This document shows positions 28,707 through 55,874 of a DNA stretch of 64,000 nucleotides, in pieces (within the stretch, counting starts at the first letter, position 1; the number at the start of each line of letters is the position of its first letter). Where the stretch lies: assembly GCA_041662125.1 (NCBI GenBank), contig JBAZTA010000003.1, forward strand, positions 71,992 through 135,991, written 5' to 3'. The notes under the pieces were generated by a model, which was not told the DNA's origin, did not search any database, and saw nothing but the letters and a program-made list of their open reading frames with translations. The stretch is from Candidatus Omnitrophota bacterium. GTDB lineage: Bacteria; Omnitrophota; Gorgyraeia; Gygaellales; Profunditerraquicolaceae. The translations under genes and the position numbers were made by a program.

Positions 28707-28800
28707 TGCCACAGAAAGTGGCATACCGGCCTATCCGATAAGGCCGGGTGTAAACAGCACCCCAGCTAATAGGTATGCTGGGTGCGCCCTTTCTGGGCAG
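28707..28800 (-). repeat. structured intergenic element, copy C (inverted relative to A and B), directly upstream of the secretin RBS
   Basis: Minus-strand RNA: a closing stem CUGCCCAGAAAG/CUUUCUGUGGCAG encloses hairpins CACCCAGC-AUACCUAUUA-GCUGGGGUG and CCGGCCU-UAUCGGAU-AGGCCGG. Hairpin 1 is near-identical to the second hairpin of copy A. Confidence 0.5.
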
Positions 28801-28816
28801 TAAGCGAAACATGCCG

Positions 28817-29458: not shown

Positions 29459-29460
29459 AG

Positions 29461-30481: not shown

Positions 30482-30582
30482 GATTACCTCCCTTTACTCT
30501 CTAACTAGAGAGTATATCAGTTCCTGTATATTAGTCAAGGATAATTAGAGGAGCGATTTGGGATTGAGCTAAAGGGCGTGAT

Positions 30583-33423: not shown

Positions 33424-33438
33424 TCCGGTTGAGATGAT

Positions 33439-34812: not shown

Positions 34813-34818
34813 AGCCTT

Positions 34819-35238: not shown

Positions 35239-35241
35239 GAG

Positions 35242-36450
35242 CTATCTCACAATTAAATTGATCTGGAATATTGGCAAAAGCATTGCAATGACGATGAAAC
35301 CAACCACTAACCCCATGATCAAGATTATCACCGGCTCTAAAAGACGGGTTAAAGTTTTAATAATCCGGTCGACTTCTTTTTCATAATCAACGGCGATCCT
35401 TAAAAGTGCTTTCTCGAGATTTCCGGTTTCTTCTCCGGTATTGACGATGTTCGTCACCAAGGACGGGAATAAGGCAGAGCCTTTGAGGCATTGGGAAAGG
35501 CTTCCCCCCTGTGATAACGTATGTTTAAACGTTAAAACCTCTTGTTTGAGGACTTCGTTTTGAATGGATGATGCGGTGACATCCAGCGCGTATACAATCG
35601 GGATCCCTCCAGAGATTAACAAAGATAAGGTGCGGACAAAACGGCTGATCTCAGTCTTTAAGATAATGATCCCTAATCCCGGTATTTTGATCTTGAAACG
35701 GTCAAAGATCATTCTGCCTTCAGGTTTCATAGAGAGTTGACGGATGATGAAAACAATGACTATGATAATTAACCCGAGTATGAGCCAGTACGTGCGTAAG
35801 AATATTGAAACAGTAACTAAAATCTGTGTCGGCAAGGGCAAAACCTGCCCCATATCAGTAAACATGGTGACCAGGCGGGGAATAACAAACCCTAAAAGGA
35901 TAAAGACCGTGATGATACTGACTGCTAAAAGGAAAAACGGGTAGGTTAATGCTGCTAAGAGAGAACTTTTAAATTCTTCTTCTTTTTCCATGAATTCTGC
36001 CAGCCGTTTGAGCGCGGGCTCAACTGACCCGCCTACTTCGCCGGAATGGACCATGGAAATGTATAATGGCGAGAATATCCCGGGATATTCAGAGAAACTT
36101 TCTGACAGGGATCGACCGTCTCTAATTTTATGAGCGATATCCTGTAATACTGCTTTGAAATATGTGTCGGCAGTCTGGTTGGATAATATGGTAAGGCCAT
36201 TTAAGATAGTGACGCCTGATTCTATCAGGCTTGCGAGTTGTCCGGTAAAAAGGGAGACGTTTTTATCGGATACCTTCCAGAGCCGCCGTAAACCTGTTTT
36301 CTGAAGGTTGGGGGCCGCGCTTTGAATAGAAACCGGAAAATACCCCTTTTGGGTGATTTTATTTACAGCGTCTTGTTCGCTCTCCGCTTCAATACTGCCC
36401 TCTATGATCTCTTGTGGTTTTGATTTTGCGGTATAAATATATTTTTGCAT
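35242..36450 (-). CDS. gspF: T2SS/T4P inner-membrane platform protein F
   Basis: 402 aa with duplicated GspF domains and 3 TM segments. YIYTAKSKPQEIIEGSIEAESEQDA is the typical N-terminus. Confidence 0.9.
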   Translation of the reverse strand: MQKYIYTAKSKPQEIIEGSIEAESEQDAVNKITQKGYFPVSIQSAAPNLQKTGLRRLWKVSDKNVSLFTGQLASLIESGVTILNGLTILSNQTADTYFKAVLQDIAHKIRDGRSLSESFSEYPGIFSPLYISMVHSGEVGGSVEPALKRLAEFMEKEEEFKSSLLAALTYPFFLLAVSIITVFILLGFVIPRLVTMFTDMGQVLPLPTQILVTVSIFLRTYWLILGLIIIVIVFIIRQLSMKPEGRMIFDRFKIKIPGLGIIILKTEISRFVRTLSLLISGGIPIVYALDVTASSIQNEVLKQEVLTFKHTLSQGGSLSQCLKGSALFPSLVTNIVNTGEETGNLEKALLRIAVDYEKEVDRIIKTLTRLLEPVIILIMGLVVGFIVIAMLLPIFQINLIVR

Positions 36451-36459
36451 GAGTACTCT

Positions 36460-45233: not shown

Positions 45234-45240
45234 AGTTTAC

Positions 45241-46287
45241 TTATTTTAAGACAAAATAACTTTGACTGGCGAAATCAAAACGGCGTTCTTCAACGATCGT
45301 ATACCCTGTTTTTTTAAACAGCTCTCTCCATTCTTCCCGGGAGAGCAGGTGTTGTTTTGCTAATGAGTGAAAGAGATGATGTTCAGCGATGGCAGATGCG
45401 TTTTTACGTATTATTTCAGAGGGTTGCCTGCAAAGTTCACAAATGATGAGATATTTGTCCTTGAAACGATTTTTTAGTTTTTTAAAAAGCTCGGTTAACC
45501 TGATTAAGTCGTCACCGATAAACTCATGCATGACATACATGCTGGTAATGGCGTCAACATCATCTAAAGCAACATCTATTGTATCAATTTTAAAGATATC
45601 TCCAACAAGTAATTTGATTTTTTTATCTAACCCGCGCTTAGTGACTTGTTCCCGGGCGTAGTTGATTGATTCCGCGGAAAGGTCAATGCCGTAACCGCAG
45701 AGCTTTTTTTCGTGGCCGCAGAGACTTATTAAGAATTCGGCGCTCCCGCAGCCTAAATCCATGACTTTTTTAAACTTGTATTTTTTGATGATATTCCTGG
45801 TCATGGGAAAGGGTAGCCATTTTTCTGTCTCAGCGCTTGCTTGAGAAACCGATTTTTCTCTACGGATAACATCTTTTCCGTACACTTTTTCTTTTTTGAG
45901 CAATGCTTCCAGGTTTTCAAAAATGGGGGCGTACGCGTGTAGAAAAAAGAATGCTCCTTGCGCATAGGTCAATGCGTGCTTGCTTTTTTTGGTTAGAAAA
46001 TAATCGTTTCCTTTTTTTTCAAGCATGCGCACCGCGTAAAGGTATTCGCAGAGTATAGTGAGTGTTTCTTTATCTAAATGCTTCTGCCGTGAGAAATCAG
46101 CGCAGTTAATCATCCCTTTTTCAGAGATGAGTTCAAAGAATCCTACATGAATGAGGCTGACCATGCAATGCATGGTCATGTAACTGCGAGCGTATTTTAA
46201 TATTTCACCGTGAGTTTTCTTGATGTCGGAAACCTGTTTTGTCCCTAGTGTTTTAATCAGATCGTATACCTGCTGTATCATAGTCAT
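45241..46287 (-). CDS. SAM-dependent O-methyltransferase-like protein
   Basis: 348 aa with an N-terminal dimerisation-like helical domain, then motif I VMDLGCGSAEFL and motif post-I. Confidence 0.7.
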   Translation of the reverse strand: MTMIQQVYDLIKTLGTKQVSDIKKTHGEILKYARSYMTMHCMVSLIHVGFFELISEKGMINCADFSRQKHLDKETLTILCEYLYAVRMLEKKGNDYFLTKKSKHALTYAQGAFFFLHAYAPIFENLEALLKKEKVYGKDVIRREKSVSQASAETEKWLPFPMTRNIIKKYKFKKVMDLGCGSAEFLISLCGHEKKLCGYGIDLSAESINYAREQVTKRGLDKKIKLLVGDIFKIDTIDVALDDVDAITSMYVMHEFIGDDLIRLTELFKKLKNRFKDKYLIICELCRQPSEIIRKNASAIAEHHLFHSLAKQHLLSREEWRELFKKTGYTIVEERRFDFASQSYFVLK

Positions 46288-46880
46288 ATTCCTTTCCCCT
46301 GTTTATATGGTCGTAAGGGTAAAAAAGCATTCACCGCTTTTTTGTAGTGTAAATAAATATCGGGGAACCTCGAGAGTAATTCTTTTTCTTCTAGTTTTAT
46401 GCGCGTTAAAAGAAACGGCGCCTGGATTAACGCTACCGCCGTAACAGTCAAATATGAATTTGAAATCAATGAAAAACCGGTTAATTCAAGGATGACCGCC
46501 AAATAGTACGGGTGGCGTATAAATTGGTATGGTCCCGTGGTAATGATTTTCTTTACCAATTTGGCGCTAACATGGATATTCCAATTATCGCCACATTCTT
46601 TCATTGCTGCAGCGCGAAGTTTTATTCCGGTAAGAAAAATACTGAATCCCAGGGCACTTATCCAATAATTGACCGGCCGGTTTCCCGAAAAATATTCAAC
46701 TATCGCCAGAGCGGCTATTATGCAATACGTAATCAGGGGGATAGTGGTTATTAATTGAGGTGTTTGATGGGCGACTTCTTTTGATACGGCAAAAGTTGCG
46801 CTTGCCCGTTCGATGGCAAAACAAACAATAACAATAAGGTAAAAAGAACTAAAGATCGTTTCTGTCTGGAACTTATGCAT
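46284..46880 (-). CDS. isoprenylcysteine carboxyl methyltransferase (ICMT)/PEMT-family membrane methyltransferase
   Basis: 198 aa with 4-5 TM helices and the C-terminal signature TTGPYQFIRHPYYLAVILE. Confidence 0.75.
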   Translation of the reverse strand: MHKFQTETIFSSFYLIVIVCFAIERASATFAVSKEVAHQTPQLITTIPLITYCIIAALAIVEYFSGNRPVNYWISALGFSIFLTGIKLRAAAMKECGDNWNIHVSAKLVKKIITTGPYQFIRHPYYLAVILELTGFSLISNSYLTVTAVALIQAPFLLTRIKLEEKELLSRFPDIYLHYKKAVNAFLPLRPYKQGKGI

Positions 46881-46990
46881 TAGTGCGTTTAAACAAAGAT
46901 CGGCAATGCATCGATGAATTCCGTGCCGATTTTATGCTGTGATTTGATGAATGTTTTACCTTTATATTTTGTTGATCCTGTACGCATGGA

Positions 46991-47368
46991 TTATTTCCCC
47001 AGGTTCTTTTTTACCGCCGAAATAAAGACTTCGACGTCAAACGGTTTATAGATATAATCAGCGACGCCAAGCTGTTGAGCTTCGATCCTGTTTTCGTCTG
47101 AGGCATAGCCGGTTATGATGATTTCAGGGACAGTAGTATTATATTTATCCTTGATTATCTGCCGTAATCGTTTAATAGTCTCTATCCCGTTCATCCCGGG
47201 CATGCGGATATCGGCAATGATCAGGTCAAAAGAACAAACTTCAGCGGCTTGTAGCGCTTCTTGGCCGCTTGCGGCTGATGCTATGTCATAGCCGAAGGTT
47301 TTCAGGTAGCGCGTTAAAGTTTTAAGCACCAGGGAATCATCATCAACCACGAGAATGTTTTTATCCAT
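46991..47368 (-). CDS. single-domain response regulator
   Basis: 125 aa with receiver residues VVDDD, DLIIADIRMPGMNG and a conserved K. Confidence 0.85.
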   Translation of the reverse strand: MDKNILVVDDDSLVLKTLTRYLKTFGYDIASAASGQEALQAAEVCSFDLIIADIRMPGMNGIETIKRLRQIIKDKYNTTVPEIIITGYASDENRIEAQQLGVADYIYKPFDVEVFISAVKKNLGK

Positions 47369-47394
47369 AGTAAAACTCCTTCTTCGTATAGAGT

Positions 47395-47808
47395 TTACAG
47401 GTTAGTAAAGTTTACGATCACCTGTTTCATATTATCGGGTATATTGGTGAATTTCTTGGCTATAACATCGACAAAGGCTACTTTTTGCACGCCTTTTGCG
47501 ATAACGTTACCGGTGCGCTCATTTTTAAAGTCTATATGCATCTCAAAGGATATTTTTTTGATATTGGCGGTAGTTAAGATCGCCTGGATCTTGTCTGCCC
47601 AGCGGCAGGTTCCGGTCACGGTGATAGATAATCCCATGGTGAACATTTGTATGGGACTTTCCACGAATTTCAGGTGGTCCGGGCAGGAAGATTTAAAATA
47701 CTGTTCTCTGGTCATGGACATCCATTCGCCGATCTTTTCCAAATGGACTTTTCCTGATGCTGACAGGTCTTCAAAATAGATGTCAAATCCGGAATTGAAT
47801 GTTTTCAT
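47395..47808 (-). CDS. hotdog-fold thioesterase-like protein
   Basis: 137 aa with the 4HBT-like pattern FEDLSASGKVHLEKIGEWMSMTREQYF. Confidence 0.4.
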   Translation of the reverse strand: MKTFNSGFDIYFEDLSASGKVHLEKIGEWMSMTREQYFKSSCPDHLKFVESPIQMFTMGLSITVTGTCRWADKIQAILTTANIKKISFEMHIDFKNERTGNVIAKGVQKVAFVDVIAKKFTNIPDNMKQVIVNFTNL

Positions 47809-47814
47809 GTAAGT

Positions 47815-48285
47815 TTAATATTTAAACAGCAATGATTTTTCGTCTACTGCAATAGGGGTTAAGATATTTTTGACCAGATTTTCCGGTAGATTTACCACAT
47901 CTGCTGTTTTTGAATTACGGAAGCATATTTTTTGCTTTCCCAGGCTTATCAATAACGCGTTATCTTTACGGATCAAAGTAAACAGAAGATTGAATCCTTT
48001 TTCTTTGATGTCCGCAGCGTTGACTTTAATGAGAATTTCATCCTGCAGTATAGCTTCACGCTTATACTGTATGTCGCAAAAAGAAACTTCGGTTTCGATA
48101 AGCGGTTTTAAGTTCTCCTGGAAACCGAGGTTTTTCCAGGCCAAAAGCGCGTCTCGGGCAATATTGTACCAGCGGATATAGTTGATAAACGAAGCGCTTC
48201 CGTAGGGAGTTGTGTCTCCCTGTGTTACGATAAGCTCGAATATGAATTCACGCTGTTTGGACGCCGTAAATATTGGTTGGTTCAT
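47815..48285 (-). CDS. hotdog-fold (4HBT-family) thioesterase-like protein
   Basis: 156 aa with VTQGDTTPYGSASFINYIRWYNIARDALL, similar to the YbgC/4HBT active-site region. Confidence 0.45.
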   Translation of the reverse strand: MNQPIFTASKQREFIFELIVTQGDTTPYGSASFINYIRWYNIARDALLAWKNLGFQENLKPLIETEVSFCDIQYKREAILQDEILIKVNAADIKEKGFNLLFTLIRKDNALLISLGKQKICFRNSKTADVVNLPENLVKNILTPIAVDEKSLLFKY

Positions 48286-48286
48286 T

Positions 48287-48661
48287 TTACTTTAAGTTTT
48301 TTTTGACTATCTCCAGGAAATCTTTTATATCAAACGGTTTAGAGAGATAATCGGCAACTTTGAGTGCCTGCGCCTCTTTCAAATGCTCATCACTGGAGTA
48401 TCCGGTGATCAGTATCTCCGGTATGGGCTTCTTTTGGGATATCTTATAATAATGCCTGATATTTTTGATAATTTCAAGACCGTTTACTTCGGGCATCCGG
48501 ATATCTGATACCACCAGGTTAAATTCGATTTCTTTTATCTTTTCCATCGCTTCAGTATTATTACGGGCAATAGCGACAGTATAGCCCTCTTTTTTAAATA
48601 ATCGTTTTAAGCTTTCTGTCACTAATTCTTCGTCATCGATCACCAGGATGTTCTTACTCAT
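48287..48661 (-). CDS. single-domain response regulator
   Basis: Start reassigned to MSKNILVIDDEELV (ATG at 48659-48661) and the receiver domain is complete. The track's longer start would overlap the kinase gene. Confidence 0.85.
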   Translation of the reverse strand: MSKNILVIDDEELVTESLKRLFKKEGYTVAIARNNTEAMEKIKEIEFNLVVSDIRMPEVNGLEIIKNIRHYYKISQKKPIPEILITGYSSDEHLKEAQALKVADYLSKPFDIKDFLEIVKKNLK

Positions 48662-48692
48662 AGCGCTCCTTACTTTTTTAAAAAAATTAAAC

Positions 48693-50852
48693 TTACAGTG
48701 TGCTGAGTTCTTTAGCGTCAGGCAGTAAAATATTGAATACCGTCCCTGTATTGACTTCTGATTCAACCGTGATCAACCCTTTGTGTTTTTCAATGATTGA
48801 TTGGCAGATCGACAAGCCAAGCCCTAATCCTTTTCCGACATCTTTGGTTGTAAAGAACGGATCGAATATCTTAGAAATGATCTCTTTTGGGATGCCGCTG
48901 CCTTCATCTTTGATCAACATTTTTATCCATTTGCCGCTTTTGGCGACAGAAACATGAATTGTCCCGCTTTTTTTAACGCCGATAATAGCGTCTTTGGCAT
49001 TTATGAGAATATTCGTTATTACCTGTTCCAATTCATTCTGGTTGCCTAAGACAAAACAATTCCTTTCTTTTTCTTCTATATCGATCTTTATATTATCTTG
49101 TTCAAATTGGTAGCTTAAGAATGCGATTACTTTGTTTAATATGTCGGATACCAGGATTCTGCCGATCTTTGACTCTTCAAGGGGCTTTTTCGCGTATGCC
49201 ATCAATTTCTGAACGATCGTGCGGCAGCGTTTTGTTGCCTCTTCTATAAGCTCTAAAGATTCTTTGGAATCGATATCCAGGGTGTCGCAGGTTGCAAGGA
49301 GTATCTGGACATTGGTCAATATCGCAGTTAAGGGATTGTTGATCTCATGGGCAACGCCGCCGGCAAGGGTGCCAACGGTCGCCAGCTTCTCAGCGTGCAC
49401 AAGCTGCTTCTGGACATCGACTAATTCTTCAGTGCGTTGTTTAACTTCCTCTTCTATCTTGCCATATAATTGCGCGTTTTCTGTTGCCAGGGCCGCCTCG
49501 CTGGCTAAAAAAGAAAAGTTCAATAAATCGTCAGAATTATAGATCTTCCCCGAAAGTTTCTCACCCAGGATCAGTATGTCAAATATTTTATCTTGCAGGA
49601 AACAGGGTACTATAACGGCGGCATTGAGTTTTCTCATTTGTTCTTCTAACTTCTTAAAGTCCTGTTTAGAATTATCTTCGGCTTGGTGTTTGATTTCTTC
49701 GTATACTAAGGGTTCTTTATTCTTTTCAAGCCAGGAGATCAATATGTTTTTGTGTTCGATGCTCTGTGGTTGGGAATCTTTTACATGGGTGCCGGCCTTT
49801 AAAAGAAAAACCTTCTTTTTTGCATCGAGAACATAGATGATCGCATGCGAGATACGGACAACTTCAGTTACCGTCTGAGCGATATAATCGATCAATTTTT
49901 GTAAATTACGGATCCTGGAGAGATCAACCGCCACATGTTTGAGGGTTTCTTGATAACGGCGTTGTTCCCGCAATAATATGGACTCTGCCTTTTTTTCAAG
50001 ATACACGTAGACAAACGGCCCGATGGTCCCTAGCATCACTAATGAAGAAAATGGGCCCATCCACCAATTCGTACCTAAATGTCTCATAAACCATTCTTTG
50101 AGAACTGCAGAAAGAATAAAAGGGATCCCCAAGACAATAGAATAAACCGCTAAAAATACAGCAGCGCGGGTAATGACGATTGAAATATCCATGATCCTGT
50201 ATCTGACGATAGCGTACGCTGTCGCTAGGATAAAAATGATTACCGGTGCAAATCCAATAGGATAGATTTCGATGCCGTAATGCGCTAAATAATCCAATCC
50301 TCCTAAATAACCAAAAGAAATCGCCCAGAACATGTATTTTGCTCTTTGGCGTTCCAGCGCAAGCCTAGCTGAAAGGTATCCGAGCCGAAGGTTACGAAAG
50401 GCCATGATCAAAGGTGTAATCCAGAATATGAGGAAAATATTGTGTAAGACGCCGATTTTCGTATGGTATCCCCAATAGTGCATGGTTACTCCGTTTACCA
50501 GCAGGCTTGTTCTCGTGAGAAGCGCAAAAATAAAGGCTAAGAGGTAAAAAAAAGTGATTATCCTGTTTTTTTGCGGTATTTTTACAAAGGCGACCGAAAA
50601 ATGGTATGTCGCAGGAGTAATAAAGGCGATCCCCAGGTAGGCGAATTGACACCAGAAATAGGCTGATTTTTCCGCAGTGCTTATATAAGACATAAAATAA
50701 CCCAGGTTCCAAAGAAAGCAGCTAAAACCCAATATTCCAAATGCCCTATTTGCGGAAGATTTCCTGTTTTTGAGATAAACAAACGCGCCGATGATCAAAC
50801 AAAATAAAGCGGTGATTAACGGCGGTATCGCATAAGGATTAAATTTAAACAT
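48693..50852 (-). CDS. sensor histidine kinase, paralog of 43032-45233 (polytopic sensor, GAF, HisKA, HATPase_c)
   Basis: 719 aa with the same architecture as the first kinase: H-box ATVGTLAGGVAHEINNPL and ATP lid DEGSGIP...GLGLGLS. Confidence 0.85.
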   Translation of the reverse strand: MFKFNPYAIPPLITALFCLIIGAFVYLKNRKSSANRAFGILGFSCFLWNLGYFMSYISTAEKSAYFWCQFAYLGIAFITPATYHFSVAFVKIPQKNRIITFFYLLAFIFALLTRTSLLVNGVTMHYWGYHTKIGVLHNIFLIFWITPLIMAFRNLRLGYLSARLALERQRAKYMFWAISFGYLGGLDYLAHYGIEIYPIGFAPVIIFILATAYAIVRYRIMDISIVITRAAVFLAVYSIVLGIPFILSAVLKEWFMRHLGTNWWMGPFSSLVMLGTIGPFVYVYLEKKAESILLREQRRYQETLKHVAVDLSRIRNLQKLIDYIAQTVTEVVRISHAIIYVLDAKKKVFLLKAGTHVKDSQPQSIEHKNILISWLEKNKEPLVYEEIKHQAEDNSKQDFKKLEEQMRKLNAAVIVPCFLQDKIFDILILGEKLSGKIYNSDDLLNFSFLASEAALATENAQLYGKIEEEVKQRTEELVDVQKQLVHAEKLATVGTLAGGVAHEINNPLTAILTNVQILLATCDTLDIDSKESLELIEEATKRCRTIVQKLMAYAKKPLEESKIGRILVSDILNKVIAFLSYQFEQDNIKIDIEEKERNCFVLGNQNELEQVITNILINAKDAIIGVKKSGTIHVSVAKSGKWIKMLIKDEGSGIPKEIISKIFDPFFTTKDVGKGLGLGLSICQSIIEKHKGLITVESEVNTGTVFNILLPDAKELSTL

Positions 50853-52314
50853 GTGGTTTTCTTTTGTGTTTATATGCGTACTGATGATAATTGAGCCCGG
50901 TTAAGATCCACATTATTGAAGTGCATTGTTTGTTCCAGAGGCTCTTCAATATAAATTTTACCTCTCCCGTATTGAAGCTTAGTAAGGAGAGTAAAGAAAT
51001 CAAGAAGCGAGTTTTCGAAAATAAAGTCTTATTTTCCTGCCTGACAAAAATACCTTTATTCCATAAATATTGTAAGCGTTCATATAAACGAGGATAAGAA
51101 TAAATATCTTTGAGGAGCCATGTCTGGCCGTCCTCTAGCTGTTGCTGTGAAATAAGTTTAGGCCTGTAACAGGCCCAGTCAGCGTTCGCTTTCCACCATT
51201 CGAAACCGAGAGCTCTCTGTTCAGCTTTTAACCTCGCAAAAACTTTTGAGCCGGGAAGCAGCGTCATAATATTGATCATTGAAAAGGCGATGTGAGTATC
51301 TTGTATAAACCGGGCTGTTTCTTTAAAAATAGCATCCGTATCAGTATCGCTTCCTAAGATGAAAGACCCAAAAATAGACATTTTATGTTTATGCACTTTT
51401 TCAATTATTCCTTTATACTCATTGGTTTTATTTATCATATCTTTATTCATTGATGCCACACTCGGCTGGGAAATTGATTCAAATCCAACGAAAATAACCC
51501 GGCACCCCGCAGCATACATTAAATCTAACATAGTGTCGTTGGATAACCTGTTTATTGAAGACTGGCACATCCAGTTCTTTATTTTAAGAGGGACAAGTCT
51601 TTTAAACAAATCTTGAGCATACGCAGGAATTGAAAGCAGGTTATCATCAGTAAAGAAAATTAACTTTTGCGTGTCAATTGCTTGCAGTTTTTTGATCTCT
51701 TCAACGACAATGTCGATCCTTTTATGCCGGTATTCCCGTCCGTTAAACTCTTTTACGGTGCAAAATTCGCAGTCGTAAGGGCAGCCGCGGCCGGTTTGAA
51801 TAGTAAAATAGCAATAGCGTTGGTTTTTCAGCAGGTCCCAACGGGGTATGGGGGAATGCGTCAGGTCAGGGAATCCGCTCGTGCGGTAGGTTTTTTGCAA
51901 ACTTCCTTTTCTGGCGTCTTCTATTACCTGTTGCCAAATTTCTTCAGCTTCTCCGATAACAACTGCATCGCTGTGCTGTGCTGCTTCTTCAGGCAGCATT
52001 GAAGCATGAATGCCGCCCATGATGACTAAAACGCCTCTTTTTCTGAATTCATCCGCGATCGCGTAAGCGCGCGGGATAACACAGGTCATTCCCGTAATTC
52101 CTACGAGGTCAACATGCTCGTTAAAATCAATCGTTTCAACATTTTCGTCAGTGAGGATTACTTCGATATCGCCAGGAGTGAGTGCCGCTAAAGTAGGAAG
52201 TGCAAGTGGGGCCCCTCCTGCTTTTTTACGGGTCAGGTGAGAAAGTGTTTTTAAATCCCAGAAACTTTCCCCCCACTCATCCAGTCTTTTTGGTGAGATG
52301 AGTTTTATTCTCAT
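50845..52314 (-). CDS. B12-binding radical SAM protein (class B rSAM)
   Basis: 489 aa with an N-terminal cobalamin-binding Rossmann domain (DLVGITGMT) and a radical SAM core with GRGCPYDCEFCTV. Confidence 0.85.
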   Translation of the reverse strand: MRIKLISPKRLDEWGESFWDLKTLSHLTRKKAGGAPLALPTLAALTPGDIEVILTDENVETIDFNEHVDLVGITGMTCVIPRAYAIADEFRKRGVLVIMGGIHASMLPEEAAQHSDAVVIGEAEEIWQQVIEDARKGSLQKTYRTSGFPDLTHSPIPRWDLLKNQRYCYFTIQTGRGCPYDCEFCTVKEFNGREYRHKRIDIVVEEIKKLQAIDTQKLIFFTDDNLLSIPAYAQDLFKRLVPLKIKNWMCQSSINRLSNDTMLDLMYAAGCRVIFVGFESISQPSVASMNKDMINKTNEYKGIIEKVHKHKMSIFGSFILGSDTDTDAIFKETARFIQDTHIAFSMINIMTLLPGSKVFARLKAEQRALGFEWWKANADWACYRPKLISQQQLEDGQTWLLKDIYSYPRLYERLQYLWNKGIFVRQENKTLFSKTRFLISLLSLLSFNTGEVKFILKSLWNKQCTSIMWILTGLNYHQYAYKHKRKPHV

Positions 52315-53875
52315 GAATGATGCTTTGCATCCTTTCTATAAGCTGATTGTCTATCAGTGTATCTCCCCAATAAAAATCAGCAACTTCAAAACCATGCTTT
52401 TTGCCTAAATTTCTGATTTCTTCAATTTTTTCTATTGTAATATTGCCTCTTCCAAAGCTGTAATTTTCAAAGCGTTTTTCTAAAGCCAGGATTATTCCCT
52501 CAGCGAAACATCCGTATATCACGTGCGGCGACGGAAGCCCAAAATCAAGCGGAAAGGCTATGGGTGTCGGGCTTTTCGCTAATCCTCCGGAAAATACAAA
52601 GATGTCGTTTCTTTGTGTCGGCGCGTGAGAAATGTTTTTTGGATAGCCCACATCGCAAATAATGGCTCCCGGTTTAAACCATTCGACCTGCAGAATGGGC
52701 GCTGTAGCGCTGGCAGCTGAAATAATAATATCCGCGCCTTCGACCGCCTTTTTATTATCTAAACTGATCGTTACGCGGGCTTTCTTTTTTTTCTTTAATT
52801 CAGCGCTCAATTTGCTTAAATGTGATTTTGTCCTGCCGGTAATGACAAGGTTTTTTACTGTATCAGTAAAAAACCGGGCACAGGCGCTTCCGATATCTCC
52901 CGTGCCGCCTATAATCGCCAAGGTTGATTTACTGATGTCCAAGTTTACTAAATCAGCTGCTTTTAAAACACCGTCAATAGCCATCGCTGCAGTATAGGTG
53001 TTCCCTGAGGTGACTGCGATATCGACTTCTCGTGAGATCTCCTGTCCGATCCGCTCAGCGACAATAGAGGTAAAACCGCCTAAGGTAACAATGCCAATAC
53101 CGTGTTTTTCGGCGATTTTGCAGGCGCGGACTACCTTCGAAAATACGCTCCAGATATCTTTTTCCATCATATCGGGAATGAATGTTGCGATCATAAATGA
53201 ACCATTCACGCTTTCCCCTGTCCGGGACCTGAAATCATTGATATCATAGAGTTTAAACGAAGGGCTGACATGGAAGAGCTGGCTGACAAATTCAGGAGAG
53301 CTGACGTTGAAATTCGGATTTAACGTCTTAAAGCATTTTTCCAGGTGCGAGAAATCATAGGGGTGGGCGATAATACCAAAGCCGGCTACCTTATCGATGT
53401 TGCCGTGTTTATAACTATCATAGCGAAGCGAGATTATTTTCTTTTCAATCGCTTCCAACATCGCTTCAAAATTCTTCGTGAGCAGTTTTTTTATGTAGCT
53501 TTCCGCAAATTCTTTTATCGCGGGAATATCGACTTTAAGCGAAACGTTAACGGTCACCAGAGTGCCCTGCGGATCGTCCTGGAACTTCCAGGAGCCTTTA
53601 AATTCATGCAGGTCGCCTTCGCTTGCTTTAAATAGGATTTGGTTATGAGTAAGGTTGAGCGTGTCAACTTCTGTCCAGCTCATGGGGATACTGTCGACCT
53701 GGATCTTCCATTTTGTTTTAATCGTATTATGGATTTTTTCTAAGACAGTGACTTCCTTGACATTGGGCATATAGCCGGGAAATTCATTGACTTTGGTCAG
53801 TAACCTGATCACTCTCCATTTTTTCGCGGGTATTAACTTTGAAACGTTTATTTCTATGAGTTCATTATTTTCCAT
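52277..53875 (-). CDS. SRPBCC (START/Bet v1-like lipid-binding) domain fused to NAD(P)-binding Rossmann oxidoreductase (COG5322-like)
   Basis: 532 aa: an N-terminal ~150 aa polyketide-cyclase/SRPBCC-like domain, then a dinucleotide fold IIGGTGDIGSACARFF. Confidence 0.55.
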   Translation of the reverse strand: MENNELIEINVSKLIPAKKWRVIRLLTKVNEFPGYMPNVKEVTVLEKIHNTIKTKWKIQVDSIPMSWTEVDTLNLTHNQILFKASEGDLHEFKGSWKFQDDPQGTLVTVNVSLKVDIPAIKEFAESYIKKLLTKNFEAMLEAIEKKIISLRYDSYKHGNIDKVAGFGIIAHPYDFSHLEKCFKTLNPNFNVSSPEFVSQLFHVSPSFKLYDINDFRSRTGESVNGSFMIATFIPDMMEKDIWSVFSKVVRACKIAEKHGIGIVTLGGFTSIVAERIGQEISREVDIAVTSGNTYTAAMAIDGVLKAADLVNLDISKSTLAIIGGTGDIGSACARFFTDTVKNLVITGRTKSHLSKLSAELKKKKKARVTISLDNKKAVEGADIIISAASATAPILQVEWFKPGAIICDVGYPKNISHAPTQRNDIFVFSGGLAKSPTPIAFPLDFGLPSPHVIYGCFAEGIILALEKRFENYSFGRGNITIEKIEEIRNLGKKHGFEVADFYWGDTLIDNQLIERMQSIIHENKTHLTKKTG

Positions 53876-54458
53876 TGATTTTTTCCTTTATTGCGTTTTT
53901 TATCCTTGTAATGCCTTCCTGCAGGTCAGAATCGTCGATGACATCTTCAAACTCTTTTAATAAAAAAACGGGTTTGCATATTCTTACCGTTATGGAGACA
54001 AATCGCGGGAATTTCGCTTTAATGGGGAGCGCTTCAAAGGCGCCCGAGATCGCGCACGGCACTATCGGCCGGCCCGTTTTCATCGCTAAGAGTGCTGCCC
54101 CTCTCTTAAACTCGCGTAATCTACCGTCTCTGCTGATGCCTCCTTCGGGGAACAATCCTACGATATTATTCTTAACTAAAAGCTCAATGGCGCATTCGGA
54201 AGACGCCCCTGTTGGTAAACAATCGAGTTTACGCAGTGCCCATTTTAATTTCGGGAAGGCGTATAACGAGCGGGAAGCAATACAATAGACCTTAGCAGGT
54301 ATCGCTGCCGCGACAACAAGCGGGTCTAGGAAACTTGCATGATTTGCCACTACGATATAATTACTTTTTTTAGGCAAATTCTCCCGACCTTCTATCTTAA
54401 GCCGGAAAAACAACTTTAGGAAAATAATGCAACCTGCGCGGAATATAGTATACCACAT
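53865..54458 (-). CDS. plsC: 1-acyl-sn-glycerol-3-phosphate acyltransferase (LPLAT/PlsC family)
   Basis: Contains motifs VVANHASFLDPLVV (HX4D), FPEGGISRDG and PIVPCAISG. Start reassigned to MWYTIFRAG (ATG at 54456-54458) to avoid a 77-nt overlap with the next gene. Confidence 0.8.
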   Translation of the reverse strand: MWYTIFRAGCIIFLKLFFRLKIEGRENLPKKSNYIVVANHASFLDPLVVAAAIPAKVYCIASRSLYAFPKLKWALRKLDCLPTGASSECAIELLVKNNIVGLFPEGGISRDGRLREFKRGAALLAMKTGRPIVPCAISGAFEALPIKAKFPRFVSITVRICKPVFLLKEFEDVIDDSDLQEGITRIKNAIKEKINGK

Positions 54459-54477
54459 ATATATAAATAGCGACGAG

Positions 54478-55521
54478 CTATCGGATGTGTGCCTGCTGTA
54501 TAAGATCGCAGACCTCAAAGCCGTACCCAACAGCGATATCGGCGATATCCTCAAGCCTGTTTATATTTGTCGCCCCTCCTAGTGAGAAATTGCCGGTTCT
54601 TTCTTCAAACGCTAACAAAATCGGCTCGGCAAATGCCGCGTGTATCAAATTGTCGGGTAAGCCTAAATCAATGCCAAGATCAATTGATGCCGGCAATTTA
54701 ATCATGCCGCCTTTTATAACCGTACTATCTTTTAAGAGCGCGGCCAGTGTATCGAGGTTTTGGCAATCTGGCACAGCGCAAATAATGCTTTTCGGTTTCA
54801 ATCTGATGCGAGCGAATTTTTCACAAGCGGTATTGGATACGAGGATAAAAATATCCGCCTGCGCTGCTTTTTCAGGCAGCTCATCCATTGAGATTGACTC
54901 AATAGATCCCTGTTTGTGCTCTTCTGTGTTCTGTAAAACAAGTATTTCTTTCAGGGTCTTGAGTTTTTCTTCGTCAGTATCGGCCAGTATGATGTTTGAA
55001 GCGTATGAAGCCAGTTTTTTTGCGCAGAGCATTCCCAGTGATGAAGCTGCCCCGATTATTGCGATTGAAGCATGGTTGAGCTGAAGTTTCTTTTCCTGAG
55101 CTCTCAGGAAAATAGATTCAAAAAATGACCAGCTCAAAAGAGACTCCCCGCTGGTAAAAGGTATTTTTATTTTCTGGGCAATGGTTGTTAAGTCTTGCGC
55201 AGAAAGTCCATATGAGCCGTTGGTGCCCATGATCCGGGCTCCTAAGCGGCCTGCAAGAAGGCCTGCTTCTATGATCTTGGTTTTGATTGTTTCTTTATCA
55301 AGTGAATCGATGGTTTGTTTTAAAACAGGCCAAACGATTATGTGTCCTGAGACCTCTTTACCTTCCCGGGAACGGATCTTTTTTAGAGTGAGCACTTTAA
55401 AAGAGAGATTTTTTCGTAATAAGAATCCCAGAGCTGAATTTGGAAGGAATCGTGTAACCGGCAGTAATCGTTTGAGTTCCTGTGTGGTGGTTGGATTTAT
55501 AAGAATGGCGAATGTTTTCAT
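54478..55521 (-). CDS. NAD(P)-binding Rossmann oxidoreductase, paralog of the C-terminal domain of 52277-53875
   Basis: 347 aa with IIGAASSLGMLCAKKL. The C-terminal GFEVCDLIQ region parallels GFEVADFYW of the paralog. Confidence 0.55.
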   Translation of the reverse strand: MKTFAILINPTTTQELKRLLPVTRFLPNSALGFLLRKNLSFKVLTLKKIRSREGKEVSGHIIVWPVLKQTIDSLDKETIKTKIIEAGLLAGRLGARIMGTNGSYGLSAQDLTTIAQKIKIPFTSGESLLSWSFFESIFLRAQEKKLQLNHASIAIIGAASSLGMLCAKKLASYASNIILADTDEEKLKTLKEILVLQNTEEHKQGSIESISMDELPEKAAQADIFILVSNTACEKFARIRLKPKSIICAVPDCQNLDTLAALLKDSTVIKGGMIKLPASIDLGIDLGLPDNLIHAAFAEPILLAFEERTGNFSLGGATNINRLEDIADIAVGYGFEVCDLIQQAHIR

Positions 55522-55530
55522 GGTTATCCG

Positions 55531-55773
55531 TTAAGGATTTAAGATATCAGGCGAATTCTTTCTGCGCTCTTTTCCAGCGCCGTTATGAATTACTTTATCT
55601 TTGATCCAGTTTTCAATATAATTTTTGTGGAAACGCCAATCAGTGCCTATTTTAAATGCGGGGATCTTACCTTCCCGCGCGTATTTATTCACGGTCAAAG
55701 GGTGAATGTTCAGGTATTCGGCAACCTCTTTGGTGGTCATGATAGGTTTATTTTCATTAATGTTTTCAGCCAT
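55531..55773 (-). CDS. excisionase-family helix-turn-helix DNA-binding protein
   Basis: 80 aa. MTTKEVAEYLNIHPLTVNKYAREGKIPAFKIGTDWRF is the MerR-superfamily excisionase-type HTH_17. Confidence 0.7.
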   Translation of the reverse strand: MAENINENKPIMTTKEVAEYLNIHPLTVNKYAREGKIPAFKIGTDWRFHKNYIENWIKDKVIHNGAGKERRKNSPDILNP

Positions 55774-55874
55774 AGTTCACCTTATTTAGACATATTTAGA
55801 ATAGTTATAAATATACAAAGAAAACCACCTGTTGTCAATGACAATTTATTATTAAAGCTAAGTGACATTTATAG

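What the first reader, a model, noticed from the sequence alone, without database searches (positions are those of the whole stretch)
50845..55521. B12-radical-SAM / SRPBCC-reductase / PlsC / reductase cluster
Four overlapping genes encode a class-B (cobalamin-dependent) radical SAM enzyme, a START-like lipid-binding domain fused to a Rossmann reductase, a PlsC acyltransferase, and a second reductase paralog. Class-B rSAM enzymes perform methylations or C-C bond formations on unactivated carbons, and in lipids they make tetraethers, methyl branches and ring structures. Combined with an acyltransferase and two reductases, this looks like a specialised membrane-lipid modification pathway, such as alkyl, ether or branched glycerolipids. 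It lies next to the B12 salvage locus that would supply the cofactor.
Basis: inference. Interest (0 to 1): 0.55.

Follow-up and report, generated by a model that had tools for sequence, protein, structure and literature searches.

The report
Sensor-linked fatty-aldehyde lipid gene cluster
An uncultured Omnitrophota bacterium carries a real, conserved gene set for reducing fatty acyl chains to aldehydes and transferring acyl groups, with an optional radical-SAM tailoring enzyme, wired to seven-helix membrane sensors; its product is unknown and no characterised pathway matches it.

Summary
The four genes exist as described, on the minus strand of a Candidatus Omnitrophota MAG. They are part of a tight array of about 13 co-directional genes (43032-55838).

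- The "SRPBCC-reductase" is a START-like domain fused to an acyl-ACP reductase (AAR). It keeps the catalytic Cys and the NADPH motif.
- The "second reductase" is a degenerate AAR paralogue. It lacks that Cys in all four orthologues examined.
- The PlsC is a short acyltransferase with the HX4D motif, closest to lysophospholipid acyltransferases.
- The radical-SAM enzyme has class-B architecture but reaches no curated family cutoff. It is not Tes/GDGT-MAS-like. Its nearest solved structure, AprD4, does not bind B12.

Conservation: HTH-(AAR2)-PlsC-SRPBCC::AAR-7TM kinase-response regulator recurs in all six related loci examined. The radical-SAM gene is an accessory insert, present in three of them. 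Its orthologues in other lineages sit beside other fatty-acyl enzymes (FadD, alpha-oxoamine synthase, aldehyde dehydrogenase, GNAT, KAS). In 8 of 11 loci they also sit beside HisKA_7TM-GAF sensors.

The B12 salvage operon is real but lies 29.6 kb away.

Verdict: a lipid pathway is supported by context; the product and chemistry are unknown. The sensor coupling is the unexpected part.

The parts
55810..55838 (-). Best sigma-70-like promoter match (TTGACA-17-TATATT, 11/12). It lies in the only sizeable intergenic gap, between coaX and the HTH gene, and is the likely operon start.
   Evidence: It is a consensus match only; the number of sites in the region is not above the shuffled expectation.
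55531..55773 (-). Small HTH_17 (excisionase/MerR/BldC-like) DNA-binding protein, 80 aa. It heads the locus in every Omnitrophota-type locus examined.
   Evidence: Pfam PF12728 at 3.3e-15. Present at the same position in L082/L083, L091, L171, L172 and L173.
54478..55521 (-). AAR2: a degenerate paralogue of acyl-ACP reductase, 347 aa. It lacks the catalytic Cys and has a decayed glycine-rich nucleotide motif. It is probably a non-catalytic partner, or at most an aldehyde-level reductase. It is optional in related loci.
   Evidence: No Pfam hit. NCBIfam PigE-N 3.9e-23 and AAR 4e-14. 'HAAFAEP' aligns to the AAR C294 motif 'FACFAEA'. All four orthologues have Ala or Ser at that position. Absent from L084, L171 and L173.
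53865..54458 (-). PlsC/LPLAT-family acyltransferase, probably 198 aa from ATG 54458 (the mechanical ORF extends to TTG 54554). It has an N-terminal hydrophobic anchor, the HX4D motif (HASFLD) and FPEGG.
   Evidence: PF01553 at 7.6e-27. Best NCBIfam hit is the acyltransferase domain of acyl-ACP--phospholipid O-acyltransferase Aas (1e-29). TIGR00530 scores 79.8, below its 102.95 cutoff. Motifs were read. 87% identical in L082/L083.
52277..53875 (-). SRPBCC/START-like lipid-binding domain (residues ~8-149) fused to an AAR-type NADPH thioester reductase (residues ~166-497) with intact catalytic Cys (YGCFAEG) and GGTGDIGSA motifs. Predicted to form a fatty aldehyde from acyl-ACP. It is the most conserved gene of the locus.
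   Evidence: Residue-level alignment to S. elongatus AAR (PDB 6jzq), 2.5e-39. 117/120 homologues keep [YF]GCF[AS]E and 119/120 keep GG[TS]GD[IV]G. The 120 best homologues are 61-100% identical, and every one that carries an organism name is Omnitrophota.
50845..52314 (-). Radical-SAM enzyme with class-B architecture: N-terminal B12-binding-type Rossmann domain, CX3CX2C radical-SAM barrel and a helical DUF4070-type C-terminus. It belongs to an uncharacterised clade and is an accessory member of the locus.
   Evidence: AF2 model with pLDDT 93.7. Best structural matches are AprD4 (TMq 0.71), then MgmA, TsrM, CysS, OxsB and TokK; GDGT-MAS reaches only TM 0.33. No NCBIfam cutoff is reached; the best score is about 90 bits. 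Clade defined.
48693..50852 (-). HK1: HisKA_7TM-GAF-HisKA-HATPase sensor histidine kinase. Its start overlaps the radical-SAM stop by 8 nt.
   Evidence: The 7TM model (pLDDT 86.3) shows a seven-helix N-terminal bundle, an eighth helix that belongs to the linker, and a beta hairpin at 119-133. It gives weak GPCR-like fold matches (TM ~0.5, E ~1e-4). The same gene follows the radical-SAM gene with a 4-nt overlap in L082 and L091. In L093 a stand-alone 7TM protein does so.
48287..48766 (-). Receiver-only response regulator. The real start is probably about 35 codons downstream of the TTG.
   Evidence: PF00072 at 1.6e-25, receiver domain at residues 40-154. The L082 orthologue is 124 aa.
47815..48285 (-). 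4HBT_2 hot-dog acyl-thioesterase-like protein 1.
   Evidence: YbgC/FadM-type, weak. 90% identical in L082. Seen only in the window/L082 lineage.
47395..47808 (-). 4HBT_2 hot-dog acyl-thioesterase-like protein 2.
   Evidence: 93% identical in L082.
46991..47368 (-). Second receiver-only response regulator.
   Evidence: PF00072 at 2.8e-28.
46284..46880 (-). ICMT/PEMT-family integral-membrane methyltransferase. This family recurs next to radical-SAM orthologues.
   Evidence: ICMT-like genes lie within 4 kb of the radical-SAM orthologue in L082/L083 and immediately beside it in L093-L096 and L174.
45241..46287 (-). Soluble class-I SAM methyltransferase. It is conserved just upstream of the second sensor kinase in L082 and L171; in L172 two genes separate them.
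   Evidence: only sub-threshold family hits. Synteny in L082, L171 and L172.
43032..45233 (-). HK2: a second HisKA_7TM-GAF sensor kinase, paralogue of HK1.
   Evidence: Conserved in L082, L171 and L172.

Best explanation
The locus encodes a specialised envelope or membrane lipid pathway built on a fatty aldehyde. The radical-SAM enzyme is an optional tailoring step, and the pathway is genetically coupled to dedicated membrane sensors.

Proposed steps, with their basis:
1. The AAR half of the fusion takes an acyl-ACP (or other acyl thioester) onto its conserved Cys and reduces it with NADPH to a long-chain aldehyde. Basis: homology plus intact motifs.
2. The fused START-like domain holds or channels the water-insoluble aldehyde. 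It may also help condense it with a glycerol-type hydroxyl. Basis: inference.
3. The HX4D acyltransferase, anchored in the membrane, acylates the lyso- or glycerol-type acceptor. Basis: inferred from family.
4. AAR2, which has lost the catalytic Cys, acts as a structural or regulatory partner. Basis: inference.
5. Where present, the class-B-type radical-SAM enzyme functionalises an unactivated carbon of the acyl or alkyl chain. The most likely reaction is C-methylation, provided it really binds cobalamin. Basis: inferred from architecture and from its constant company with acyl-thioester enzymes.
6. The two 7TM-GAF kinases with their receiver-only regulators sense this lipid, or the membrane state it creates, and feed back on the cell. 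Basis: inferred from conserved, translationally coupled synteny.

The product could be an ether, vinyl-ether or branched glycerolipid, but nothing here identifies it.
For: - Catalytic competence of the fusion: the Cys and NADPH motifs align to AAR C294 and GATGDIGSA. They are kept in 117/120 and 119/120 homologues.
- The PlsC has HX4D and FPEGG.
- The gene array is tight, with overlapping junctions. The one strong promoter-like site lies upstream of the HTH gene.
- PlsC and the fusion are 87% and 86% identical in L082, while the housekeeping CoaX is 74%. The fusion is 61-72% identical across more than 100 homologue clusters, of which all named ones are Omnitrophota. That suits a core physiological role such as membrane biogenesis.
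- The trio PlsC-fusion-radical-SAM recurs in an Elusimicrobiota MAG with different flanks.
- Radical-SAM orthologues elsewhere are always next to acyl-thioester enzymes:
  - FadD + BioF/SPT-type alpha-oxoamine synthase (L086).
  - FadD + aldehyde dehydrogenase (L090).
  - FadD + a fused GNAT (L089).
  - KAS + two more B12-type radical-SAM enzymes + ICMT (L093/L174).
- Sister clades sit with KAS, LpxL, GT2, a CrtI-like enzyme and ABC-2 exporters.
- Sensor link: a 7TM/GAF sensor lies next to the radical-SAM gene in 8 of 11 non-redundant clade loci, against about 12 of 150 outside the clade (Fisher p = 1.8e-6).
- The organism can salvage corrinoids.
Against: - No enzyme that would make an ether or vinyl-ether bond was identified.
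- The radical-SAM gene is missing from three of the six Omnitrophota-type loci examined, so it cannot be essential to the core product.
- It reaches no lipid radical-SAM family cutoff. Its nearest solved relatives are a sugar diol-dehydratase that lacks B12 (AprD4) and a protein methylase (MgmA).
- The regulators have no DNA-binding output. In other lineages the sensor carries an HD-type output instead of a kinase. That fits second-messenger signalling at least as well as homeostatic gene control.
- Alpha-oxoamine synthase, GNAT and FadD are also typical makers of lipid-derived signals.
- No lipid data exist for any Omnitrophota in the searched literature.
Confidence: 0.45

Rival explanations
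1. The locus is a lipid-derived signalling circuit. The acyl-thioester enzymes plus the radical-SAM enzyme make a small hydrophobic signal, such as a tailored fatty aldehyde, alcohol, aminoketone, amide or methyl ester. The adjacent GPCR-like 7TM-GAF proteins are its cognate receptors. Their output is phosphorelay to receiver-only regulators, or HD-type phosphodiesterase activity in other lineages.
For: - The 7TM-GAF sensor is the most constant neighbour of the radical-SAM enzyme across lineages, while the output domain is swapped between kinase and HD.
- The radical-SAM stop overlaps the 7TM gene start by 4-8 nt in four lineages.
- Stand-alone 7TM proteins occur.
- The window locus carries two paralogous sensors, each placed directly after a modifying enzyme.
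- Tailoring genes vary around a constant core and sensor: the radical-SAM gene; an HpnA-like SDR plus an unknown gene; a KAS/ACP/DH/KR set; thioesterases; ICMT; NMO/GDSL. That looks like signal diversification.
- L086 has FadD + an alpha-oxoamine synthase that also hits the CqsA-type autoinducer synthase model (162 bits, below cutoff) next to the sensor. From my own knowledge, this resembles the CqsA/CqsS arrangement.
- The 7TM model gives GPCR-like matches.
Against: - PlsC and the fusion are conserved more strongly than housekeeping neighbours across a phylum, which is unusual for signal synthases.
- PlsC and ICMT/PEMT families normally act on membrane lipids.
- The GPCR-like fold match is weak and generic (TM ~0.5).
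- No ligand is known for any HisKA_7TM domain.
- The Elusimicrobiota trio has no sensor.
Confidence: 0.3
2. The radical-SAM enzyme acts on a protein or peptide, not a lipid. It could post-translationally modify the translationally coupled 7TM sensor, or a RiPP or cofactor. In that case its adjacency to lipid genes is incidental.
For: - Its second-nearest solved relative is the protein Gln C-methylase MgmA (E 9e-20; TMq 0.59).
- There are sub-threshold hits to RiPP radical-SAM enzymes: ApyD at 62 bits and rSAM_ocin_1 at 31 bits. The nearby methyltransferase hits ApyS at 83.5 bits.
- Its stop overlaps the start of 7TM genes.
Against: - All these scores are far below the family cutoffs (750, 282 and 400 bits). 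They are no better than the hits to HpnJ, PhpK and the ladderane model.
- There is no room for a precursor-peptide ORF. All gaps in 43-56 kb are 110 nt or shorter, except the promoter gap.
- Fatty-acyl enzymes accompany the radical-SAM gene in every lineage where it has conserved neighbours.
Confidence: 0.07
3. The locus is a hydrocarbon, fatty-alcohol or wax pathway, as in cyanobacterial AAR/ADO alkane synthesis. The aldehyde would be converted to an alkane or alcohol for storage or surface coating rather than to a glycerolipid.
For: The fusion's closest characterised relative is cyanobacterial AAR. AAR2 might reduce aldehyde to alcohol.
Against: - No aldehyde-deformylating oxygenase, wax synthase or alcohol-forming FAR domain is among the 14 genes of the array.
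- ADO needs O2. From my own knowledge, Omnitrophota are mostly anaerobes.
- AAR2 has a decayed nucleotide motif.
- The constant partner is a PlsC-type acyltransferase.
Confidence: 0.06
4. There is no joint pathway. The radical-SAM gene is an unrelated gene that landed in a variable slot of a conserved locus, and the PlsC/AAR pair is ordinary phospholipid housekeeping.
For: - The slot between the fusion and the kinase is variable. It is empty in L172 and L173 and holds an SDR plus an unknown gene in L171. In L091 a toxin-antitoxin pair sits in it upstream of the radical-SAM gene.
- The radical-SAM protein is only 60% identical in L082, where its neighbours are 71-93% identical.
Against: - The radical-SAM gene is found with PlsC + fusion in two phyla with different flanks.
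- It is found with other acyl enzymes and the same sensor type elsewhere, and the enrichment is significant.
- The reading frames overlap on both sides.
Confidence: 0.08

Closest known systems
Cyanobacterial long-chain acyl-ACP reductase (AAR; TIGR04058; PDB 6jzq) and the N-terminal thioester-reductase domain of PigE (PDB 4ppm)
   Same: Same fold and same catalytic logic. The nucleophilic Cys in ..GCFAE.. and the GxTGDIGSA NADPH motif are conserved. The expected product is a free long-chain aldehyde.
   Different: - It scores 175.7 bits against a cutoff of 449.7, so it is not an equivalog.
- It is fused to an N-terminal SRPBCC/START domain.
- It is partnered with a PlsC acyltransferase instead of ADO or an aminotransferase.
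- It is accompanied by a Cys-less paralogue.
Myxobacterial ether-lipid enzyme ElbD, a multidomain fatty-acyl reductase + AGPAT (my own knowledge; ElbD homologue counts in Omnitrophota MAGs are given in PMC11868695)
   Same: It combines reduction of an activated fatty acid with a PlsC/AGPAT-type acyltransferase. This is the logic by which bacteria are thought to start alkyl-glycerol ether lipids.
   Different: Here the reductase has the AAR fold, not a NAD_binding_4 terminal reductase. The proteins are separate. There is no AMP-ligase or carrier domain. Homology to ElbD was not tested, because no reference sequence was available.
Lipid gene clusters with B12-type radical-SAM enzymes (ladderane-candidate clusters; TIGR04072 'lipid biosynthesis B12-binding/radical SAM protein'; review PMC13459092)
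   Same: The radical-SAM enzyme has B12-domain architecture and is embedded among fatty-acid-type genes in anaerobes. Sister clades of this enzyme sit with KAS, a phytoene-desaturase-like enzyme and further radical-SAM genes.
   Different: It scores 85.6 bits against a cutoff of 360 for TIGR04072. There is no ACP, FabZ or FabF in the window locus. The function of the ladderane candidates is itself unproven.
AprD4 (radical-SAM 1,2-diol dehydratase; PDB 6fd2) and MgmA (MCR glutamine C-methylase; PDB 9ccb)
   Same: These are the nearest solved structures: E 9e-22 and 9e-20 by sequence profile, TMq 0.71 and 0.59 by fold. They have the same three-part architecture.
   Different: Only 17-18% identity. 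The AprD4 family model scores 41 bits against a cutoff of 500. The substrates (an aminoglycoside, a protein) are unrelated to the gene context here. AprD4 binds no cobalamin (PMC12931638).
DesK/DesR-des (membrane-state sensor next to a lipid-modifying enzyme) and CqsA/CqsS (alpha-oxoamine-synthase-made lipid signal with a membrane kinase receptor). Both are analogies from my own knowledge.
   Same: A polytopic membrane sensor kinase is encoded beside the enzyme that changes or makes a lipid. L086 even pairs a FadD and an alpha-oxoamine synthase with the sensor.
   Different: The sensor domain is HisKA_7TM + GAF, which has no known ligand. The regulators are receiver-only. The outputs vary between kinase and HD. 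No homology to DesK or CqsS was shown.

Membership tests
Class B (cobalamin-dependent) radical SAM enzymes | CX3CX2C motif binding the radical-SAM [4Fe-4S] cluster in a partial TIM barrel | tested here: met
   C178-P-Y-D-C182-E-F-C185. PF04055 at 1.2e-15. The three Cys are invariant in 34 homologues. The motif is found in 112 of the 120 best hits.
Class B (cobalamin-dependent) radical SAM enzymes | N-terminal Rossmann-type B12-binding domain | tested here: met
   PF02310 at 39.5 bits, above the 32.1 cutoff, over residues 36-128. The AF2 model superposes on TsrM, OxsB, TokK and CysS.
Class B (cobalamin-dependent) radical SAM enzymes | Actual binding and use of cobalamin | not testable with these tools
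   The nearest solved structure, AprD4, has the same domain but binds no cobalamin. Corrinoid salvage genes in the window show only that the cofactor is available.
Tes / GDGT-MAS tetraether synthases | Sequence and fold similarity to GDGT-MAS (PDB 7tol) | tested here: not met
   No hit at E<=0.01 in the profile search of PDB sequences. Foldseek TM is 0.33, covering the radical-SAM core only.
Hopanoid radical-SAM enzymes HpnJ, HpnR (and HpnP) | Score above the NCBIfam equivalog cutoff | tested here: not met
   HpnJ scores 90.6 bits against 577.6; HpnR scores 54.4 against 650. No HpnP model appeared among the hits.
TIGR04072 lipid-biosynthesis (ladderane-cluster) B12 radical SAM | Score above the cutoff of 360 bits | tested here: not met
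   85.6 bits. Representatives of sister clades also fail, at 59-99 bits.
GrsA/GrsB, Gms, Gmm, Mss, Cds (other lipid radical-SAM enzymes listed in PMC13459092) | Sequence membership | not testable with these tools
   There are no reference sequences or models for these in the libraries available. GrsA/B share the same B12-domain architecture, so a distant relationship is not excluded.
RiPP-maturing B12 radical-SAM enzymes (ApyD, rSAM_ocin_1) | Family score above cutoff, and a precursor-peptide gene nearby | tested here: not met
   ApyD scores 62 bits against 750; rSAM_ocin_1 scores 31.1 against 281.85. No intergenic space for a precursor gene exists in the array.
Long-chain acyl-ACP reductase (AAR, TIGR04058): the fusion protein | Catalytic Cys (C294 equivalent) and NADPH glycine motif | tested here: met
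   YGCFAEG and GGTGDIGSA align to AAR. They are conserved in 117/120 and 119/120 homologues.
Long-chain acyl-ACP reductase (AAR, TIGR04058): the fusion protein | Equivalog score (449.7 bits) and partnership with aldehyde-deformylating oxygenase | tested here: not met
   175.7 bits. None of the 14 genes of the array has an ADO-like annotation. The rest of the genome was not examined.
Long-chain acyl-ACP reductase (AAR): AAR2 | Catalytic Cys | tested here: not met
   Ala at the aligned position (HAAFAEP). Ala or Ser in all four orthologues, with a degenerate glycine motif. The Cys is invariant in the related AAR-fold TAD domains.
PlsC / lysophospholipid acyltransferase (PF01553) | HX4D catalytic motif and FPEGG block; Pfam gathering score | tested here: met
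   HASFLD and FPEGG. 94.1 bits against a cutoff of 23.
Canonical 1-acyl-G3P acyltransferase (TIGR00530) | Score above 102.95 bits | tested here: not met
   79.8 bits. The best hit is the acyltransferase domain of Aas.
HisKA_7TM sensor kinases (PF16927) | N-terminal 7TM domain above the Pfam cutoff, plus HisKA/HATPase | tested here: met
   HK1 scores 60.1 bits and HK2 scores 65 bits, against a cutoff of 28.6. The model shows seven N-terminal transmembrane helices, with an eighth helix in the linker.

The most novel reading that the evidence does not exclude
This could be a previously unrecognised, multi-phylum lipid-signal circuit. Acyl-thioester enzymes (AAR/PlsC, or FadD with an alpha-oxoamine synthase, aldehyde dehydrogenase or GNAT) and a new clade of class-B-type radical-SAM enzymes would make a tailored hydrophobic signal. 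A GPCR-like HisKA_7TM-GAF receptor, translationally coupled to the radical-SAM gene, would perceive it. The output would be a phosphorelay or an HD-type phosphodiesterase. That would give the first ligand class for the HisKA_7TM domain and a first chemical communication system for Omnitrophota.
Probability: 0.27. Interest if true: 0.8.

Novelty: new variant of a known kind. Interest (0 to 1): 0.55.

Why it matters
- Omnitrophota are a large uncultured phylum. I found no lipid data for them in the searched literature.
- A phylum-wide, strongly conserved START::AAR fusion paired with an acyltransferase points to a fatty-aldehyde-based lipid route that is not among the characterised bacterial ether or plasmalogen pathways.
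- The radical-SAM enzyme belongs to a large clade of B12-architecture enzymes. The clade and the sister clades sampled reach no curated family and sit in lipid-type clusters of anaerobes. Assigning one member would open the rest.
- The repeated, translationally coupled pairing with HisKA_7TM-GAF sensors gives a concrete, testable candidate input for a sensor domain that has no known ligand. The input would be a lipid or a membrane state.

Tried and rejected
They returned mostly 33-44% relatives and only L091-L096 from the orthologue clade. They were still useful as an outgroup and for sister-clade contexts.
2. Exact look-up of the window's own radical-SAM protein returned only a 3-kb contig.
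3. No NCBIfam model names the radical-SAM enzyme, its sister clades or the co-located methyltransferases above cutoff. The idea that the soluble methyltransferase is a PhcB-like signal synthase found no support: its best hits are sub-threshold 2-ketoarginine and ApyS methyltransferases.
4. The homologue search with the 7TM region gave only 17 hits. The resulting model matches GPCR bundles only weakly and generically, so it does not identify a ligand.
6. Literature searches found no paper on this cluster, on SRPBCC-AAR fusions or on HisKA_7TM ligands.
7. The RiPP reading was rejected for lack of any precursor ORF and because all scores are sub-threshold.
8. 'Adjacent to B12 salvage' was rejected: the distance is 29.6 kb.
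9. The C-terminal extension of the 743-aa radical-SAM homologue P0028 has no Pfam hit, so only one GNAT fusion (P0085) is established.

Full report
**What is there.** The window comes from a Candidatus Omnitrophota metagenome-assembled genome. The radical-SAM protein is identical to an NCBI/JGI entry of that name on a 395,841-bp contig. Every long ORF listed between 43 and 62 kb lies on the minus strand.
- 50845-52314 has a B12-binding domain, a Radical_SAM domain and the C178-x3-C182-x2-C185 motif.
- 52277-53875 is an SRPBCC/START-like domain fused to a domain that matches long-chain acyl-ACP reductase (TIGR04058, 1.6e-51) and the PigE N-terminal reductase (8e-52).
- 53865-54554 is a PF01553 acyltransferase with HX4D (HASFLD) and FPEGG motifs.
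- 54478-55521 has no Pfam hit but is weakly AAR/PigE-like.

**Refinements to the annotation.**
- A residue-level alignment to Synechococcus AAR (PDB 6jzq, 2.5e-39) shows that the fusion keeps the acyl-accepting Cys (YGCFAEG against FACFAEA) and the GGTGDIGSA NADPH motif. These motifs are present in 117 and 119 of its 120 best homologues.
- The fourth gene (AAR2) has Ala at that position and a decayed glycine motif. So do its orthologues in L082, L091 and L172, with Ala or Ser. The Cys is invariant in AAR-fold enzymes, including the recently described TAD domains. AAR2 is therefore unlikely to be a thioester reductase.
- The PlsC most likely starts at ATG 54458. That gives 198 aa, the length of its 87%-identical orthologue. 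Its best curated match is the acyltransferase domain of Aas, not canonical PlsC.

**The cluster is larger than reported.**
- The radical-SAM stop overlaps the start of a HisKA_7TM-GAF histidine kinase by 8 nt.
- Downstream, with gaps of 110 nt or less, come a receiver-only regulator, two hot-dog thioesterase-like genes, a second receiver, an ICMT/PEMT-type membrane methyltransferase, a soluble SAM methyltransferase and a second 7TM-GAF kinase.
- Upstream, a small HTH_17 protein heads the array. The best promoter-like match of the region lies just before it.
- Further upstream are the housekeeping genes coaX, uvrB, nadC and valS.

**The B12 claim.** A cobalamin riboswitch lies at 20309-20497. 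It is flanked by cobO, btuFCD-like genes, cobC/U/T/S and a TonB-dependent receptor, together spanning 11711-21267. The salvage locus is therefore real. It is 29.6 kb from the radical-SAM gene, separated by a type II secretion/pilus cluster and other genes. It shows that the cofactor is available, not that the two loci are linked.

**What the radical-SAM enzyme is and is not.**
- No curated NCBIfam family is reached. The best scores are about 90 bits (HpnJ, PhpK, the ladderane-cluster family TIGR04072) against cutoffs of 360-600.
- A profile of 34 homologues finds AprD4 (9e-22) and the protein methylase MgmA (9e-20) as the nearest solved proteins, and does not find GDGT-MAS.
- A confident AlphaFold model (pLDDT 93.7) superposes best on AprD4 (TMq 0.71), then MgmA, TsrM, CysS, OxsB and TokK. 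GDGT-MAS matches only in the core (TM 0.33).
- AprD4 does not bind cobalamin (PMC12931638), so B12 dependence here is an inference from architecture.
- A 2026 review of lipid-modifying radical-SAM enzymes lists Tes, Mss, Gms, GrsA/B, Gmm, Cds, HpnH/J/P/R, Jaw5 and the ladderane candidates. None is linked to AAR/PlsC genes. Grs-type enzymes share the B12-domain architecture, but I had no sequences with which to test them.

**Conservation of the four-gene set.**
- In another Omnitrophota contig (L082/L083) the whole neighbourhood from valS to the second kinase is syntenic.
- In L091 (radical-SAM 53% identical) the order is HTH-AAR2-PlsC-fusion-radical-SAM-7TM kinase-regulator-methyltransferase. 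A nucleotidyltransferase/HepT toxin-antitoxin pair is inserted before the radical-SAM gene.
- In an Elusimicrobiota MAG (L084, 58%) only PlsC-fusion-radical-SAM-PlsC recur, with unrelated flanks.
- Three further contigs found through the fusion protein keep HTH-(AAR2)-PlsC-fusion-kinase-regulator and have no radical-SAM gene; the one with a name is Omnitrophota. The slot is empty in L172 and L173. In L171 it holds an HpnA-like SDR plus an unknown 511-aa protein. L173 continues into a KR-KAS-KAS-ACP-dehydratase set and another AAR-like gene.
- The fusion is the most conserved gene. It is 86% identical in L082, where CoaX is 74% and the radical-SAM protein 60%. Its 120 best homologues are all 61-100% identical, and every named one is Omnitrophota.
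- The conserved unit is therefore PlsC + SRPBCC::AAR + 7TM kinase. The radical-SAM gene and AAR2 are accessory.

**Where the radical-SAM orthologues go elsewhere.** A neighbour-joining tree of 166 relatives separates a clade at 44-60% identity from the 32-44% bulk. Within the clade the contexts are:
- L086 (Actinobacteria MAG): FadD-like ligase + a BioF/Kbl/SPT-type alpha-oxoamine synthase (372 bits; it also hits the CqsA-type model at 162 bits) + radical-SAM + GAF-HD protein.
- L089: FadD + a radical-SAM::GNAT fusion + a RaSEA-like radical-SAM enzyme + 7TM-GAF-HD.
- L090/L092: FadD + radical-SAM + aldehyde dehydrogenase + 7TM-GAF-HD.
- L093/L096/L174: KAS + two other B12-type radical-SAM enzymes + ICMT + radical-SAM + a stand-alone HisKA_7TM protein + 7TM-GAF kinase.
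- L094/L095: radical-SAM + ICMT, plus a kinase in L094.
- L087 and L088: no such neighbours.

Two regularities follow.
1. The radical-SAM enzyme always travels with an enzyme that uses an acyl thioester (PlsC, GNAT, alpha-oxoamine synthase, KAS). It is often also with one that makes or handles an aldehyde (AAR, aldehyde dehydrogenase).
2. A 7TM/GAF sensor lies next to it in 8 of 11 non-redundant clade loci, against about 12 of 150 outside the clade (Fisher p = 1.8e-6). The start of the 7TM gene overlaps the radical-SAM stop by 4-8 nt in four lineages.

Sister clades sit with KAS, GT2, LpxL-type acyltransferases, further radical-SAM genes, a CrtI-like flavoprotein and ABC-2 exporters. Their representatives are not curated families either. 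Across the whole family the context is lipid-like.

**The sensors.**
- HK1 and HK2 carry PF16927 well above cutoff.
- A model of the HK1 membrane domain (pLDDT 86.3) shows seven transmembrane helices, an eighth helix in the linker, and a beta hairpin between helices 4 and 5.
- It gives only weak, generic matches to GPCR bundles (TM ~0.5, E ~1e-4).
- The two papers that mention the domain give no ligand.
- In the window the regulators are receiver-only. In other lineages the same 7TM-GAF module is fused to an HD-type domain instead of a kinase.

**Mechanism.**
- Shown by sequence: an AAR-type reductase competent for thioester-to-aldehyde reduction, fused to a hydrophobic-ligand domain; an HX4D acyltransferase; a radical-SAM enzyme of class-B architecture; a dead AAR paralogue; and two 7TM-GAF kinases in one tight array.
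- Inferred: acyl-ACP is reduced to a fatty aldehyde that is held by the START-like domain. The acyltransferase acylates a lyso- or glycerol-type acceptor. The radical-SAM enzyme functionalises an unactivated chain carbon, most likely by methylation if cobalamin is bound. The sensors read the product or the resulting membrane state.
- I give this 'specialised envelope-lipid pathway with accessory radical-SAM tailoring and a dedicated sensor' model 0.45.
- The main rival (0.3) is that the product is a lipid-derived signal and the 7TM-GAF proteins are its receptors. It is favoured by output-domain swapping, variable tailoring genes, and the alpha-oxoamine synthase, GNAT and FadD contexts. It is disfavoured by the very high conservation of PlsC and the fusion.
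- Minor rivals are a protein or RiPP substrate (0.07), a hydrocarbon or wax pathway (0.06) and incidental juxtaposition (0.08).
- One speculative sub-variant needs only the two conserved proteins. The START-like 'dehydrase' domain would help condense the aldehyde with a glycerol hydroxyl into a vinyl ether, which PlsC then acylates. Nothing tested here bears on it.

**Comparison with known systems and novelty.**
- The cluster works like known pairings of a reductase with an AGPAT (ElbD-type ether-lipid initiation) and like lipid clusters with B12-type radical-SAM enzymes. It is a member of none of the families tested: AAR equivalog, TIGR00530 PlsC, TIGR04072, HpnJ/R, Tes and the RiPP radical-SAM enzymes all fail their cutoffs.
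- The searched literature does not describe the START::AAR fusion, the Cys-less paralogue or the conserved coupling to HisKA_7TM-GAF sensors.
- I rate it a new variant of a known kind: a lipid-type biosynthetic cluster with a radical-SAM tailoring enzyme.
- Interest is 0.55.

Noticed in passing
window 11711-21267 (minus strand): A complete corrinoid uptake and remodelling operon behind a cobalamin riboswitch (20309-20497): cobO upstream of the riboswitch, then BtuF/C/D-like transporter genes, CobC-like phosphatase, CobU, CobT, CobS, a Diphthami_syn_2-family protein and a TonB-dependent receptor.
   Followed up: yes
window 6453-6954 and 8193-8376 (minus strand): Bacterial class A RNase P RNA (224 bits) and two tRNA genes.
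   Followed up: no
window 26800-38169 (minus strand): A type II secretion / type IV pilus-like cluster: secretin, AAA ATPase, a PilM/PilN fusion, pseudopilins, T2SSF and T2SSE. It separates the B12 locus from the lipid locus.
   Followed up: partly
window 24067-26357 (minus strand): An MGDG-synthase-like GT28 glycosyltransferase next to an HD_5 (HD-GYP-type) protein. This is another glycolipid-plus-signalling pairing in the same window.
   Followed up: no
window 39358-42970 (minus strand): A methyltransferase::GT2 fusion (569 aa) followed by a DUF2079 polytopic membrane protein (636 aa), directly downstream of the second sensor kinase. I did not examine whether they belong to the array.
   Followed up: no
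L091 9164-9997: A nucleotidyltransferase (MNT) / HepT toxin-antitoxin pair is inserted exactly between the SRPBCC::AAR gene and the radical-SAM gene. This shows that the junction is a tolerated insertion slot.
   Followed up: partly
L173 13177-19569: Downstream of the conserved PlsC-fusion-kinase-regulator core, this contig carries KR, two KAS genes, ACP, a FabA/ApeI-like dehydratase, a WbuX-like amidotransferase and a second AAR-like gene (528 aa). It is a dedicated type-II FAS/PKS-like set in place of the radical-SAM gene.
   Followed up: partly
L014, L098-L144 and others (about 36 loci), beside radical-SAM relatives at 38-44% identity: A large sister clade of the radical-SAM enzyme is almost always flanked by a CrtI/amine-oxidase-like flavoprotein (28 loci) and an unannotated 270-aa protein with no Pfam hit (36 loci). 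This is another uncharacterised conserved module.
   Followed up: partly
P0085 (L089 8001-10145) and P0028: Two radical-SAM orthologues carry C-terminal extensions of about 230-250 aa. In P0085 the extension is a GNAT acyltransferase above Pfam cutoffs. In P0028 it has no Pfam hit.
   Followed up: partly
L093 / L174, the two genes upstream of the ICMT gene: Two further B12-type radical-SAM genes precede the orthologue. One gives 257 bits to the hopanoid C-3 methylase HpnR model (cutoff 650), so it is a distant HpnR relative sitting in a KAS-containing cluster.
   Followed up: partly
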